A DNA stretch of 64,000 nt from Candidatus Scatovivens sp. (GTDB lineage Bacteria > Bacillota > Clostridia > TANB77 > CAG-508), in the NCBI GenBank assembly GCA_051891335.1, contig JBJFFD010000022.1, forward strand, positions 3,527 through 67,526, written 5' to 3'. Of the stretch, positions 59,313 to 61,870 are shown one piece after another. Position 1 is the stretch's first letter, and every line of letters begins with the position of its first letter. The translations under genes and the position numbers were made by a program. A model generated the notes under the pieces. That model saw only the letters and a list, made by a program, of their open reading frames with translations. It was not told the DNA's origin and did not search any database.

Positions 59313-59389
59313 GGCGGGGTAGCTCAGTTGGCTAGAGCACTTGGTTCATACCCAAGGTGTCGAGAGTTCGAATCTCCCTCCCGCTACCA
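59313..59389 (+). tRNA. tRNA-Met (anticodon CAT, elongator-type; the Ile2/lysidine alternative is not excluded)
   Basis: Cloverleaf: acceptor GGCGGGG/TCCCGCT. D-arm TAGCTCAGTTGGCTAGAGCA. Anticodon arm CTTGG-TTCATAC-CCAAG. T-arm GTTCGAATC. Encoded CCA. Terminator hairpin AAAACCGTA...TACGGTTTT at 59391-59423. Confidence 0.9.
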
Positions 59390-59795
59390 TCAAAACCGTA
59401 TTTTATACGGTTTTATTTTTTTATAAATTTTTATTCTCTTCCATAAATTACTAATTTTGTTATTATAATACAATAAAAGGCTATTAATTTCAACGTATTA
59501 TCTGTCTTGCTTATTATAATCTATATAAGGGAAATTAATTTAAATCTCTGTAGGGGCGGAACCCCGTGTCCGCCCGTAAAAAAATACATTGTTTGCGGGT
59601 CGACAGAGGCGTCGACCCCTACAACATTTTCAATAAATTTTATTCCTACAAATTACTAATTATTGTTCTGATTATGCCATAAATGACAGATAATTTTGAA
59701 AAAATTTTTGGTTTTGAATATGATGAATATTTATTTACAAATAAAATTATTATCGAAGAAATAACAAGAATAATTATTTTATATAAATAAATTAA
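59380..59795 (+). repeat. Direct repeat unit copy 1: tRNA-Met 3' end, terminator, an inverted REP doublet, and a remnant of a small ORF
   Basis: Near-identical to 61255-61870, with 1 SNP across the roughly 290-bp core. Copy 2 has an extra roughly 200 bp (N-terminal part of ORF 61599..61865). The tRNA-proximal 40 bp is more diverged. Confidence 0.8.
59548..59629. repeat. Inverted REP doublet: GTAGGGGCGGA-N8-TCCGCCC in plus orientation, and GGGTCGAC-N6-GTCGACCCCTACAACATTTT in minus orientation
   Basis: Two family members in opposite orientation about 20 bp apart. Duplicated again at about 61423-61505. Confidence 0.55.
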
Positions 59796-59869
59796 TTTAA
59801 AAAAAAGCAAAGTTTTTGTATTAGTAGCACAAAAACTTTTTATTTAACTTTTTTTACAAAATCTATTAA

Positions 59870-61063
59870 TTATTCTTCTATCAACCACTCTAAAGCATTT
59901 TTTACTATTATTCCATTTTCATTAGATAATGGTATCTTATCTAATGTTAAAATTATTTTTCCATAATTATCATTAATCTTTTCTAAAGAATTTAATTCTC
60001 TTGTTAATATTTTATTTTCATTATCTTTTAGTGTTTCACAAACTTGAATATATATTCTTCCATTGCTATTTAAAGCAACAAAATCCACTTCATATTCATC
60101 AACTTTTCCTATATATACTTCATATCCACGTCTTAGTAATTCTAAATATATTATATTCTCTAAAATGTGACCTCTATCACCCATTTTTCTACCTAATATA
60201 AAATATCTTAATCCCAAATCAGAAGTATAATATTTCTCACCTGTTTTTAAATATTGTTTTCCCTTTATATCATATCTTGATGCTTTATATAAAAAGAATG
60301 ATTCTATAAATCCCTCTAAATACTTTTCAACTGTTCTTACATTTATAGACCTTCCATCACTTGTCATTGTATTTGCAATGTTATTACTTGATACTAAATT
60401 ACCTATATTATCTAATGCAAAAGTCGCTACACTTTTTAACATTAATTCATCTGAAATTCCTTTTCTTATCATTACATCTTTTATAATAACATCATTAAAT
60501 AATGTACCTAAATACTTGCTTATCTCATCTTCTTCTAATTGTGTTGTATATGGGAATGACCCTAAAGATATATATTCATTATACAATTTTTCTAAATCAT
60601 CGGATTCTTTAGTACTTATAAATTCTTTAAATGATAATGGTAACATCTTTATTTCTACATATCTTCCTGTTAATAATGTAGATAGTTCTGATGATAATAA
60701 CCTTGCATTAGAACCTGTTATATATAAATCAATATTTTTATTTAAATATAAACTATCAGCAACTTTTTGAAATTCTGGTATTATTTGTATTTCATCTATA
60801 AGAATATAAATCTTTTTTTCATGTATTAAATTATCATTTATATAATTATATAAATCCATATAATTTTGTATAAAATGATATTTTAAATCTTCTAAGTTTA
60901 TACTAATTATTTGTGTTTTATCTACACCATTTTTTATTAAATATTCCTTATATAACTCCATTAAAGTACTCTTGCCACATCTTCTAATTCCTGTGATAAT
61001 TTTTATTAAATCCTTATCTTTAAATTTTATTAATTCATTTATATATTTAGGTCTTTCTATCAT
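59870..61063 (-). CDS. AAA-family ATPase with a C-terminal DUF4143-like domain
   Basis: Walker A GIRRCGKST and Walker B ILIDEIQ. 397 aa. Flanked on both sides by a roughly 45-bp hairpin repeat AAGTTTTTGTATTA(G/A)TAG(C/T)ACAAAAACTTTTTATTT (59805-59848 and 61103-61148). Confidence 0.75.
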   Translation of the reverse strand: MIERPKYINELIKFKDKDLIKIITGIRRCGKSTLMELYKEYLIKNGVDKTQIISINLEDLKYHFIQNYMDLYNYINDNLIHEKKIYILIDEIQIIPEFQKVADSLYLNKNIDLYITGSNARLLSSELSTLLTGRYVEIKMLPLSFKEFISTKESDDLEKLYNEYISLGSFPYTTQLEEDEISKYLGTLFNDVIIKDVMIRKGISDELMLKSVATFALDNIGNLVSSNNIANTMTSDGRSINVRTVEKYLEGFIESFFLYKASRYDIKGKQYLKTGEKYYTSDLGLRYFILGRKMGDRGHILENIIYLELLRRGYEVYIGKVDEYEVDFVALNSNGRIYIQVCETLKDNENKILTRELNSLEKINDNYGKIILTLDKIPLSNENGIIVKNALEWLIEE

Positions 61064-61254
61064 ATAATCACTCCTTTATATTAATAATACAATTTTTACT
61101 TAAAAAAGTCAAGTTTTTGTATTAATAGTACAAAAACTTTTTATTTTTACATGTTTTTTGTATTATTATACTCAAATAATTATTATTTATTCATATTTTT
61201 AAACAATTTACTAAACAAAGCTCTATTTTTCTTTTATTTTTAAGAATTTTATTT

Positions 61255-61870
61255 TTTCCCGCTACCAACAGAACCGTATTTCATATGGTTTTATTTTTTA
61301 TAAATTTTTATTCTCTTCCATAAATTACTAATTTTGTTATTATAATACAATAAAAGGCTATTAATTTCAACGTATTATCTGTCTTGCTTATTATAATCTA
61401 TATAAGGGAAATTAATTTAAATCTCTGTAGGGGCGGAACCCCGTGTCCGCCCGTAAAAAAATACATTGTTTGCGGGTCGACAGAGGCGTCGACCCCTACA
61501 ACATTTTCAATAAATTTTATTCCTACAAATTACTAATTATTGTTCTGATTATACCATAAATGACAGATAATTTTTAACTAATTACCTTATTTACAATAGT
61601 GAACATTTCATTTCTTTCTTCATCACTAAACTCTGATAATGAAACAATATGTTTTTTAGGGAGTAGTATCATAAACCCTGGAATAGGTACTTCCCAGTCT
61701 TGTGATAATATAAAAGTATCATTTTCATATGCAATAAATAGTAGAATAGAAGAAAAATCTAAGGATAATTTTGAAAAAATTTTTGGTTTTGAATATGATG
61801 AACATTTATTTACAAATAAAATTATTATCGAAGAAATAGCAAGAATAATTATTTTATATAAATAAATTAA
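61255..61870 (+). repeat. Direct repeat unit copy 2, beginning with a second copy of the tRNA-Met 3' end (CCCGCTACCA)
   Basis: Its sequence after the tRNA 3'-end copy is near-identical to 59391-59795. Contains the REP doublet and the full small ORF 61599..61865. Confidence 0.8.
61599..61865 (+). CDS. Hypothetical small protein (intact copy; its 3' third is also present as a remnant at about 59690-59790)
   Basis: 88-aa ORF. The C-terminal DNFEKIFGFEYDEHLFTNKIIIEEIARIIILYK is duplicated in copy 1 with 2 substitutions. Confidence 0.35.
   Translation: MNISFLSSSLNSDNETICFLGSSIINPGIGTSQSCDNIKVSFSYAINSRIEEKSKDNFEKIFGFEYDEHLFTNKIIIEEIARIIILYK

What the first reader, a model, noticed from the sequence alone, without database searches (positions are those of the whole stretch)
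59313..61870. tRNA-Met 3' end re-duplicated 1.9 kb downstream within near-identical ~330-bp direct repeats flanking an AAA/DUF4143 ATPase: remnant integrative element or tandem duplication
The last 10 nt of the tRNA (CCCGCTACCA) plus a terminator-like hairpin recur at 61264. The following roughly 290 bp is identical to the sequence after the real tRNA, with 1 SNP. The tRNA-proximal 40 bp carries several substitutions, which resembles the attL/attR pattern of tRNA-targeting integrases. The only cargo between the repeats is an AAA ATPase with a DUF4143 C-terminus, itself bracketed by a 45-bp hairpin direct repeat at 59805-59848 and 61103-61148. No integrase is present. The long perfect direct repeats would allow loop-out deletion of the ATPase.
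Basis: seen in the sequence. Interest (0 to 1): 0.6.

Follow-up and report, generated by a model that had tools for sequence, protein, structure and literature searches.

The report
Integrase-less gene cassettes stacked at tRNA-Met
The repeat is real and most likely marks the junctions of small mobile-element remnants that no longer carry an integrase, inserted one after another at the 3' end of a tRNA-Met gene; the first carries a candidate phage-defence ATPase, which is an ordinary kind of genomic islet.

Summary
The last 11 nt of tRNA-Met (TCCCGCTACCA) recur at 61257. The repeat runs 428 bp (59379-59806) against 625 bp (61257-61881). Copy 2 holds 198 extra bp, a HIT pseudogene fragment. Both copies contain a GC-rich REP-like doublet.

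The cargo is an AAA_14/DUF4143 ATPase of the PADLOC candidate defence family PDC-S01. Its gene plus a ~190-bp leader occurs at 85-94% DNA identity in at least seven unrelated contexts.

In related species the same tRNA-Met position (within 1 nt) is the attachment site of elements that do carry an integrase and a relaxase. Their flanking repeat has the same layout: tRNA end plus terminator hairpin.

An independent assembly of the same strain shows a third identical junction about 4.7 kb further on, beyond the window, closing a second unit that carries the Sel1 operon.

Best reading: a tandem array of attachment-site-bounded, integrase-less elements (CIME-like). No empty site could be found, and the order across the 260-290-bp identical stretch is unverified. 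This is a new member of a known kind, of modest interest.

The parts
59259..59287 (+). Promoter-like site of the tRNA (TTGACA, 17 nt, TATAAT)
   Evidence: 12 of 12 consensus match; consensus scan only.
59313..59389 (+). tRNA-Met (anticodon CAT), the integration target
   Evidence: ARAGORN; Rfam tRNA 59 bits. It is syntenic with the tRNA-Met of related species.
59379..59389 (+). Core copy 1: TCCCGCTACCA, the 3' acceptor strand plus discriminator base plus CCA
   Evidence: One of exactly two occurrences in the window.
59390..59424 (+). Terminator hairpin h1, directly after the tRNA
   Evidence: Terminator scan; DNA fold -8.3 kcal/mol, z = -6.0.
59379..59806 (+). Repeat copy 1 (428 bp): core, hairpin, segment A, segment B; lacks the 198-bp HIT stretch
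59550..59622 (.). REP-like doublet, copy 1: two GTAG-headed GC-rich palindromes in inverted orientation
   Evidence: The same 27-mer is dispersed in 15 metagenome stretches.
59801..59845 (+). Palindrome hpD: an extra copy of the ATPase leader palindrome, placed 3' of the gene with a T-run after it
   Evidence: 91% identical to 61102-61146. Not found downstream of the gene in any of the other loci compared.
59870..61063 (-). AAA_14/DUF4143 ATPase, PADLOC candidate defence family PDC-S01
   Evidence: Pfam; PADLOC E = 2e-152. Identical to NCBI protein MGN1298878.1 from a Candidatus Scatovivens sp. MAG.
61084..61112 (-). ATPase promoter-like site (TTGACT, 17 nt, TATTAT); the -35 hexamer overlaps palindrome hpU
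   Evidence: Conserved in the homologues whose upstream regions were aligned or read.
61102..61146 (+). Palindrome hpU (11-7-11) in the ATPase leader
   Evidence: DNA fold z = -3.5.
59862..61257 (-). Conserved ATPase cassette: the gene plus a 193-nt leader
   Evidence: 94% identical to L002 with sharp ends; 85-87% identical to L004-L010 over 59866/59877-61192/61195.
61231..61256 (+). Distal end of the unit (TTTTATTTTTAAGAATTTTATTTTT) that abuts the core
   Evidence: The same 30-mer, including TCCCG, ends Logan contig L120 about 4.7 kb further on.
61257..61267 (+). Core copy 2: the tRNA 3' fragment TCCCGCTACCA
   Evidence: The sequence to its left is cassette DNA, not tRNA.
61268..61300 (+). 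Hairpin h2, a weakened copy of h1 (4 substitutions and 1 indel)
   Evidence: DNA fold -3.3 kcal/mol.
61257..61881 (+). Repeat copy 2 (625 bp): core, hairpin, segment A, HIT fragment, segment B
61427..61499 (.). REP-like doublet, copy 2
61566..61763 (-). 198-bp stretch present only in copy 2. It holds an internal fragment of a HIT-family gene and is bounded by a 9-bp GATAATTTT repeat.
   Evidence: Pfam HIT E = 1.3e-4 (23 bits, cutoff 21.5); translation; indel limits.
61923..63428 (-). Sel1-repeat protein, last gene of the second unit's operon
   Evidence: Pfam Sel1 E = 1e-52. The best homologue among 5.8 billion proteins is 50% identical.
63525..63947 (-). 140-aa protein with no family match, part of the second unit. 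The operon continues beyond the window with 161-aa and 443-aa proteins.

Best explanation
Shown: the repeats are the junctions of at least two small units placed one after another at the 3' end of tRNA-Met.
- Each unit starts, on the tRNA side, with the same arm: terminator hairpin, about 270 bp containing a REP-like doublet, then 118 bp.
- Each unit ends with the same 25 nt (…AAGAATTTTATTTTT) abutting an 11-nt copy of the tRNA end.
- Unit 1 (59390-61256) carries only the PDC-S01 ATPase.
- Unit 2 (61268 to about 65,900 in window-equivalent coordinates) carries the Sel1 operon.
- No integrase is seen in the 64-kb window or in the 1.9 kb beyond it.

Inferred: the units were inserted by a tyrosine integrase that crosses over in the last 11-12 nt of tRNA-Met. 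Elements carrying such an integrase and a relaxase sit at this same site in related species. The units later lost, or never had, their own integrase, so they are CIME-like and could move only with an integrase supplied in trans.

Inferred: copy 1 lost the HIT fragment by deletion between the 9-bp repeats.

Inferred, not shown: the ATPase can be lost either by integrase-mediated excision at the cores or by RecA-dependent loop-out across the 260-290-bp identical stretch.
For: 1. The core occurs exactly twice in the window and bounds the ATPase unit.
2. Logan contig L120 is an independent k-mer assembly of run SRR30616851 and is 100% identical to window 63022-64000. It ends exactly on the 30-mer TTTTATTTTTAAGAATTTTATTTTTTCCCG, which equals window 61231-61260. 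A second, different upstream context therefore converges on the same unit-end/core junction.
3. L129-L138 carry a ~10.5-kb element with an integrase (PF00589) and a Mob_Pre relaxase at the syntenic tRNA-Met. It is flanked by a 68-nt repeat made of 12 nt of tRNA end, the terminator hairpin and ~25 nt more. The repeat starts within 1 nt of the window's core.
4. Homologous integrases lie about 390 bp from the tRNA in L028, L030 and L033. L016 and L025 hold remnants. In L025 the tRNA tail recurs 1.4 kb downstream with its own hairpin.
5. In L009 a homologous ATPase cassette lies between a tRNA-Thr and a 12-nt copy of that tRNA's 3' end. The orientation is the same and the spacing is 195 nt from core to ATG, against 193 nt here.
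6. Differences between the two copies are clustered next to the core (P = 7e-4). This is expected if the core-proximal part has a different history from the rest.
7. No integrase is present in the window, and the proteins of unit 2 have no Pfam or PADLOC match.
Against: - No integrase that acts on this site was found in this genome. Only 64 kb plus 1.9 kb could be read.
- The unit ends are not homologous to the arms of the integrase-bearing elements of related species, so the link to that integrase family rests only on the shared crossover position.
- A shared arm of 420-620 bp at more than 97% identity is much longer than the 68-nt repeat of the intact element. It needs either very recent common origin of the two units or gene conversion between them.
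- What follows the third core is unknown.
- The sequence comes from a metagenome-assembled genome. The order of the units across the identical stretch is not verified by reads.
- No empty site and no excised circle were observed.
Confidence: 0.55

Rival explanations
1. Flank duplication by homologous recombination. One integrated ATPase unit excised aberrantly together with the tRNA-distal flank (hairpin, A, B). It then re-entered an empty locus by a single crossover in that about 430-bp homology, leaving the flank on both sides, in the manner of a Campbell insertion. The arm would then be chromosomal flank, not part of the element.
For: - The central 270 nt of the repeat are almost identical while the core-proximal 38 nt differ.
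- The repeat consists of decayed non-coding DNA that includes a pseudogene fragment.
- The B1/hpD junction shows an A-rich microhomology with the ATPase leader (sequence).
Against: - It does not predict a third junction with the same 25-nt unit end behind a different cargo.
- It needs two rare events.
- The sharp start of the repeat at the integrase crossover position still requires a site-specific step first.
Confidence: 0.18
2. Assembly or strain-mixture artefact. The sample holds two variants of one locus, one with the ATPase unit and one with the Sel1 unit, or an empty site plus an excised 1.9-kb circle. The assembler threaded them in series through the identical stretch.
For: - The window is from a MAG contig.
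- 260 nt between the last hairpin difference (59416) and the next SNP (59676) are identical in the two copies. That is longer than usual short-read k-mers.
- Logan contigs of the same run break at the tRNA (59349) and at the third junction.
Against: - The unique junctions must each exist in reads: tRNA-h1, B1-hpD, the ATPase-specific leader joined to core and h2, and B2 joined to the Sel1 terminator.
- The independent Logan assembly confirms that two different contexts converge on the unit-end/core 30-mer.
- Even if the order is wrong, units bounded by tRNA-end copies remain.
Confidence: 0.12
3. The ATPase cassette moves by itself. The gene with its palindromic leader would be an autonomous module that inserts at tRNA ends and REP sequences. 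It would use its own PD-(D/E)XK-type domain or a Xer- or integron-like reaction at the palindrome.
For: - The cassette has sharp ends in at least seven unrelated contexts.
- Direct repeats flank it in four of them: the window, L002 (a 49-nt REP repeat), L009 and L106 (about 125 nt including a tRNA-Thr fragment).
- An extra palindrome copy lies 3' of the gene here, and the palindrome is duplicated in tandem in L106.
Against: - The palindrome overlaps the -35 hexamer in every homologue, so it looks like a regulatory or terminator element.
- The left limit of homology varies between loci (about 84-130, 193 or more than 215 nt).
- Three contexts have no flanking repeat.
- No integron core motifs and no recombinase are present.
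- Unit 2 has the same ends but no ATPase.
Confidence: 0.07
4. Plain tandem duplication of a 1.9-kb segment by unequal crossing-over or replication slippage, followed by loss of the second ATPase.
For: Direct repeats with a start-to-start spacing of 1877-1878 bp.
Against: - The second unit has no trace of the ATPase and carries a different operon.
- The start of the repeat coincides with an integrase crossover site.
- A third junction follows a unit of a different length.
Confidence: 0.04

Closest known systems
CIMEs (cis-mobilizable elements) and tandem accretion of ICE/IME-derived islands, as described for ICESt1-related elements of Streptococcus thermophilus and reviewed in PMC5704250
   Same: - Units are bounded by direct repeats that include the 3' end of the target gene.
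- No integration or transfer genes are present.
- Units sit in tandem at one site.
- Related genomes carry integrase-bearing elements at the same site.
   Different: - The shared arm is 420-620 bp, not tens of bp.
- Both visible units lack an integrase, and no functional partner was seen in this genome.
- Excision was not observed.
Integrative mobilizable elements at tRNA-Met in related Clostridia (L129-L138: tyrosine integrase PF00589, a small ORF, Mob_Pre relaxase; about 10.5 kb)
   Same: - Same tRNA and same crossover position, within 1 nt.
- The repeat is built from the tRNA end plus the terminator hairpin.
- Genes lie antisense to the tRNA.
   Different: - The window units have no integrase or relaxase.
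- Their arms are not homologous to those of the IMEs.
- The repeat is about 6-9 times longer.
PADLOC phage-defence candidate PDC-S01 (AAA_14 ATPase fused to DUF4143, a PD-(D/E)XK superfamily domain; PMC12988326, PMC3424549)
   Same: - Full-length HMM match (E = 2e-152).
- Same two domains.
- Walker A (GIRRCGKST) and Walker B (DEIQ) motifs are present.
- A single-gene unit on mobile DNA.
   Different: - Nothing here or in the cited papers shows antiviral activity for this family.
- The nuclease-like motif is non-canonical (EVDF … YxQV) in all seven sequences aligned.
REP/REPIN elements mobilised by RAYT transposases (PMC3116915, PMC5581495)
   Same: - GTAG head followed by a GC-rich palindrome.
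- Intergenic and dispersed.
- Here present as an inverted doublet.
   Different: - The two halves of the doublet are different sequences.
- No RAYT gene was looked for.
- The host is an AT-rich uncultured Clostridia genome.
Tandem genomic islands at the tmRNA gene ssrA of Dehalococcoides (PMC3146451)
   Same: From the abstract and my own knowledge: several islands inserted in series at one small-RNA gene, each closed by a copy of the gene's 3' end.
   Different: From my own knowledge, not checked here: those islands carry their own integrases and have short repeats.

Membership tests
CIME (decayed integrative element that keeps attL and attR) | [quoted passage not shown] | tested here: met
   TCCCGCTACCA at 59379 and 61257; a third junction in L120.
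CIME (decayed integrative element that keeps attL and attR) | No integrase and no transfer genes inside the unit | tested here: met
   Pfam; tblastn with the L030 integrase against the window gave no hit.
CIME (decayed integrative element that keeps attL and attR) | The att sites are those of a functional integrase-bearing element | tested here: inconclusive
   Same tRNA and same crossover position (within 1 nt) as the integrase-bearing elements of L129-L138. However, the arms are not homologous, and no such element was seen in this genome.
CIME (decayed integrative element that keeps attL and attR) | Can be excised or mobilised by an integrase supplied in cis or in trans | not testable with these tools
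   Needs reads or an experiment.
Integrative mobilizable element (IME) | Encodes its own integrase and a relaxase or oriT | tested here: not met
   Neither is present in 59390-64000 or in the 1.9 kb beyond the window.
PADLOC PDC-S01 | Full-length match to the family HMM, with AAA_14 and DUF4143 domains | tested here: met
   PDLC04787, E = 2e-152, residues 1-396; Pfam.
PADLOC PDC-S01 | Protects against phage | not testable with these tools
   PMC12988326 states that validation is pending for most PDC candidates.
PD-(D/E)XK nuclease fold (DUF4143) | Alpha-beta-beta-beta-alpha-beta core with acidic and lysine catalytic residues | tested here: inconclusive
   The model is poor overall (pLDDT 54.6). 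Residues 300-397 (pLDDT 65-83) show that order of secondary-structure elements. The motif is EVDF … YxQV, without the canonical lysine.
REP/REPIN | GTAG head plus GC-rich palindrome, multicopy and intergenic | tested here: met
   8 GTAGGGG sites against 1.0 expected; units read; 15 metagenome stretches.
REP/REPIN | A cognate RAYT (Y1 transposase) in the genome | not tested
   Only 64 kb of the genome was available. PMC5581495 reports Group 1 RAYTs in Clostridia.
Simple tandem duplication | Both units have the same content | tested here: not met
   The second unit has no ATPase and carries the Sel1 operon.
Integron gene cassette / attC | attC with R''/R' core sites (RYYYAAC / GTTRRRY) and an integron integrase nearby | tested here: not met
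   The palindrome AAGTTTTTGTA-N7-TACAAAAACTT lacks these cores (sequence; consensus from my own knowledge). No integrase is present in the window.

The most novel reading that the evidence does not exclude
The locus may be a tRNA-anchored cassette array. In this reading, integrase-less units share a conserved about 0.45-0.65-kb junction module (unit end, tRNA-end core, hairpin, REP doublet). A trans-acting tyrosine integrase would swap and stack them, working somewhat like an integron for defence and accessory genes. The PDC-S01 cassette would be a recurrent passenger, also captured at tRNA-Thr (L009, L106) and at REP sites (L002).
Probability: 0.15. Interest if true: 0.6.

Novelty: new member of a known kind. 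Interest (0 to 1): 0.33.

Why it matters
If the reading is right, the locus shows how a widespread but untested candidate defence gene (PDC-S01) travels in uncultured gut Clostridia. It moves as a one-gene, self-promoted cassette inside integrase-less units that pile up at a tRNA-Met hotspot. The long identical arms make loss or exchange of the gene easy, which would produce strain-level variation in phage-defence content.

This is useful context for defence-island surveys of MAGs. It is also a warning that such repeats are places where MAG assemblies can be wrong. It does not change any general concept.

Tried and rejected
Searches that found nothing or could not answer the question:
- Empty-site search. 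Exact-protein look-ups for the ATPase, the Sel1 protein, the 64-aa protein, the 140-aa protein and the HD protein found only two short Logan contigs from one run, SRR30616851.
- A DNA pattern for the tRNA end plus hairpin had no match in 185,579 species genomes. The closest species have about 73% identical SMC. No strain comparison was therefore possible.
- The Sel1 protein has no close homologue; the best is 50% identical.
- Rfam has no family for the GC-rich element.
- Viral collections hold neither the ATPase, nor the junction, nor the REP unit.
- A sensitive blastn of the arm against relatives gave only AT-rich noise apart from the tRNA.
- tblastn with relatives' integrase, relaxase and neighbouring proteins found no remnants in 59300-64000.
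- The PDB has no sequence relative of the ATPase.
- The AlphaFold model was poor (pLDDT 54.6) because only homologues at least 79% identical could be submitted, so no fold search was run.

Ideas considered and set aside:
- Integron attC: rejected, because the core motifs are absent.
- Xer/dif-type module. The family is common on Acinetobacter plasmids (174 of 232 plasmid records). One literature search on dif modules turned up nothing that links them to this ATPase. The idea was set aside because the palindrome is 11-7-11 and overlaps the promoter in every homologue.
- Simple tandem duplication: rejected, because the second unit lacks the ATPase.
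Full report

Yes. ARAGORN finds one tRNA in the window, tRNA-Met(CAT) at 59313-59389, and Rfam agrees (59 bits). Its last 11 nt, TCCCGCTACCA, occur exactly twice in 64 kb, at 59379 and 61257, both on the + strand.

A pairwise alignment shows three zones after the core:
- 4 substitutions and a 1-nt indel within the first 38 nt, which form the terminator hairpin;
- a single substitution in the next ~270 nt;
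- a 198-bp stretch present only in copy 2, followed by a further 118 repeated bp with 3 substitutions.

The copies therefore span 59379-59806 (428 bp) and 61257-61881 (625 bp), longer than the ~330 bp reported. The clustering of differences next to the core is unlikely under a uniform rate (P = 7e-4). The 45-nt palindromic repeat bracketing the ATPase is also real (59801-59845 and 61102-61146, 91% identical, none expected by chance).

**2. What is inside the repeat?**

It is non-coding, decayed DNA.

- The 198 bp unique to copy 2 (61566-61763) are bounded by a 9-bp GATAATTTT repeat. On the minus strand they encode about 52 residues of the middle of a HIT-family protein (Pfam HIT E = 1.3e-4; translation). 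Copy 1 most simply lost this stretch by deletion between the 9-mers.
- The striking GC-rich stretch (59550-59622 and 61427-61499) consists of two different units in inverted orientation: GTAGGGGCGGAACCCCGTGTCCGCCCG and GTAGGGGTCGACGCCTCTGTCGACCCG.
- Units of the same design, a GTAG head followed by a GC-rich palindrome, lie at 901-926, 986-1006, 2491-2517 and 4393-4412. GTAGGGG occurs 8 times against 1.0 expected.
- The exact 27-mer is present in 15 stretches of JGI metagenome contigs, where only the unit itself matches.

This is a dispersed REP-like family, and the repeat happens to contain a doublet of it. Rfam has no family for it.

**3. The cargo.**

- The 397-aa protein (59870-61063, minus strand) has AAA_14 and DUF4143 domains. 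It matches the PADLOC model PDC-S01 over its full length (E = 2e-152).
- PDC-S01 is a very common single-gene phage-defence candidate, an ATPase fused to a PD-(D/E)XK-superfamily domain. Validation is pending for most PDC candidates (PMC12988326), and DUF4143 is listed in the PD-(D/E)XK superfamily in PMC3424549.
- Walker A and Walker B motifs are present. The nuclease-like motif is EVDF … YxQV in all seven sequences aligned, 42-100% identical.
- The structure model was poor (pLDDT 54.6). Residues 300-397 show an alpha-beta-beta-beta-alpha-beta order of elements.
- The protein is identical to MGN1298878.1 from a Candidatus Scatovivens sp. MAG, on a contig of 97,650 bp.
- Family members occur on 232 plasmid records and 19 phage-labelled records, all below 60% identity.

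**4. The ATPase is a cassette.**

Homologues 82-97% identical in protein sit in unrelated neighbourhoods:
- next to an Asn/Asp-tRNA synthetase (L002);
- between a Big_2 protein and PriA (L004-L008);
- near VanW and tRNA genes (L009);
- near radical-SAM and SAVED genes (L106);
- between patatin and BcrAD (L110-L119);
- after ValRS and a sigma factor (L121-L128).

DNA homology to the window is limited to the gene plus its leader: 59862-61257 at 94% for L002, and about 59870-61195 at 85-87% for L004-L010.

Every leader read has the palindrome AAGTTTTTGTA-N7-TACAAAAACTT overlapping a TTGAC(T) -35 hexamer, followed 17 nt later by TATTAT. I read this as a combined terminator/operator and promoter that insulates the gene. 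The extra copy 3' of the gene in the window (hpD) has a T-run after it and probably terminates the ATPase transcript.

Direct repeats flank the cassette in four of the seven contexts:
- the window;
- L002, a 49-nt repeat containing a REP unit;
- L009, 12 nt;
- L106, about 125 nt.

**5. tRNA ends as insertion sites.**

In L009 the cassette lies between a tRNA-Thr(UGU) and a 12-nt copy of that tRNA's 3' end (GACTAGCGGCTC) followed by a terminator hairpin. The ATPase is antisense to the tRNA, and the copy lies 195 nt upstream of the ATG. In the window the orientation is the same and the distance is 193 nt. L106 carries the same tRNA-Thr fragment on both sides of the gene although no tRNA is nearby.

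**6. The tRNA-Met site in relatives.**

The closest species in the GTDB representative set have about 73% identical SMC. They keep the order SMC, HD protein, ScpB, small protein, tRNA-Met. What follows the tRNA differs in almost every species:
- tyrosine integrase plus Mob_Pre relaxase (L028, L030, L033);
- an integrase remnant (L016);
- a Schlafen/AlbA_2 protein (L015);
- a Tad4-like protein (L020);
- a radical-SAM peptide cluster (L037).

Full copies of the integrase-bearing element in L129-L138 are about 10.5 kb long. They are flanked by a 68-nt perfect repeat made of the last 12 nt of the tRNA, the terminator hairpin and ~25 nt more. In L025 a 1.4-kb remnant with a recognisable integrase fragment is closed by the same tRNA tail with its own hairpin.

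The window's repeat starts within 1 nt of this position and has the same layout. This is the main support for an integrase-made junction.

**7. A third junction.**

Logan contig L120 is a separate k-mer assembly of run SRR30616851. It is 100% identical to window 63022-64000 and runs 1,932 bp past the window end. That extra sequence holds a 161-aa and a 443-aa gene with no Pfam or PADLOC match.

The contig stops exactly on TTTTATTTTTAAGAATTTTATTTTTTCCCG. This is identical to window 61231-61260: the last 25 nt of the ATPase unit plus the first 5 nt of the tRNA fragment. A unitig that ends after 30 shared nt is what a k = 31 graph produces where two different sequences converge.

The layout is therefore:
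- tRNA-Met with core 1;
- unit 1: hairpin, arm, hpD, ATPase, leader, unit end;
- core 2;
- unit 2: hairpin, arm with the HIT fragment, Sel1 operon, the same unit end;
- core 3;
- unknown sequence.

The two units have the same ends and different cargo. No integrase is seen in the window or in the 1.9 kb read beyond it. In both units the cargo is transcribed from the distal end towards the tRNA.

**8. Mechanism.**

*Shown:* the three junctions, the shared ends, the absence of an integrase in the 66 kb read, the hotspot nature of the site, and the cassette nature of the ATPase.

*Inferred:*
- A tyrosine integrase acting on the last 11-12 nt of tRNA-Met inserted the units one after another.
- The units are now CIME-like and depend on an integrase supplied in trans (definition in PMC5704250).
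- The arm of copy 1 lost the HIT fragment by a microhomology deletion.
- The ATPase can be lost by excision at the cores or by homologous loop-out across the identical stretch.

*Rivals:*
- Re-insertion by homologous recombination, duplicating a chromosomal flank. This does not predict the third junction.
- A MAG threading error between strain variants, or between an empty site and a circle. This is possible for the order of the units but not for the junctions themselves.
- An autonomously mobile ATPase. Unit 2 has the same ends but no ATPase, and the palindrome is part of the promoter.
- Plain tandem duplication. The second unit lacks the gene.

**9. Comparison with known systems, and novelty.**

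The closest known kind is the CIME with tandem accretion of decayed ICE/IME-type islands at a tRNA gene. Two of the defining features are met (att repeats, no integrase). One is inconclusive (the link to a functional element), and one cannot be tested here (mobilisation).

The locus is not an IME, not an integron cassette and not a simple duplication. The unusual point is the length and near-identity of the shared arm. I rate it a new member of a known kind, of modest interest.

**10. Limits.**

- No second genome of this species exists in the collections searched, so the empty-site test could not be done.
- The sequence after core 3 and the rest of the genome are unseen.
- The order of the units across the 260 nt that are identical in the two copies rests on a MAG assembly.

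Noticed in passing
window 901-926, 986-1006, 2491-2517, 4393-4412 (all minus strand), plus the doublets at 59550-59622 and 61427-61499: A family of GTAG-headed GC-rich palindromes (REP-like) in a 26% GC genome. GTAGGGG occurs 8 times against 1.0 expected. One unit is found as an exact 27-mer in 15 JGI metagenome stretches (L091-L105), and L002 and L004 carry related units. No RAYT gene was looked for.
   Followed up: partly
L009 11475-11780 (minus strand), NCBI GCA_964584475.1: A tRNA-Thr(UGU) is interrupted after U36 by a ~230-nt group I intron (Rfam Intron_gpI 47.5 bits, gathering score 50, E = 3e-11, full-length model match). ARAGORN did not call this tRNA. Its 3' end is the insertion point of an ATPase cassette.
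   Followed up: partly
window 58293-58878 (minus strand): The ScpB gene is split into two overlapping ORFs (149 and 57 aa) by a frameshift near 58429-58466. The same split is present in the independent Logan contig L001, so it is probably not an error peculiar to the MAG.
   Followed up: no
window 61084-61146, and the leaders of L002, L004, L007, L009, L106, L110 and L121: An 11-7-11 palindrome, AAGTTTTTGTA-N7-TACAAAAACTT, overlaps the -35 hexamer and is conserved in sequence upstream of every ATPase homologue examined. It is duplicated in tandem in L106. It could be an operator or an insulating terminator.
   Followed up: partly
window 61923-63947 and L120 1-1924: A four-gene operon (443, 161 and 140 aa, then a 501-aa Sel1-repeat protein with a 108-nt periodic repeat at 62284-63290). 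The three smaller proteins have no Pfam or PADLOC match. The best homologue of the Sel1 protein among 5.8 billion proteins is 50% identical.
   Followed up: partly
window 59437-59470 and 59640-59675 (also in copy 2): An imperfect ~30-nt direct repeat (TTCC.A.AAATTACTAATT.TTGTT) lies on either side of the REP doublet, about 200 bp apart. It could be a set of integrase arm-type sites or a trace of how the doublet arrived.
   Followed up: no
L106 3720-3830 and 5260-5370: An ATPase homologue is flanked by ~125-nt direct repeats. Each contains a terminator hairpin, a tRNA-Thr 3' fragment and the start of the cassette leader, although no tRNA gene is nearby. This looks like a relocated or partly deleted tandem of cassettes.
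   Followed up: partly
L015, L020, L025, L037 (downstream of the syntenic tRNA-Met): The cargo at this hotspot in other species includes a Schlafen/AlbA_2 protein, Fic proteins, a protein with a Tad4 (Thoeris inhibitor) domain, and a Cys/Gly-rich peptide next to a radical-SAM enzyme.
   Followed up: no
L004 about 2904-3098; L121 about 5791-5889: Small ORFs containing a long (CA)n run, which would encode Thr-His repeats, lie downstream of ATPase homologues in two unrelated contexts: about 100 bp downstream in L004 and about 1.6 kb downstream in L121. The sequence just before the run is similar in both (…AACGTTGG…CTGTA-ACACAC…).
   Followed up: no
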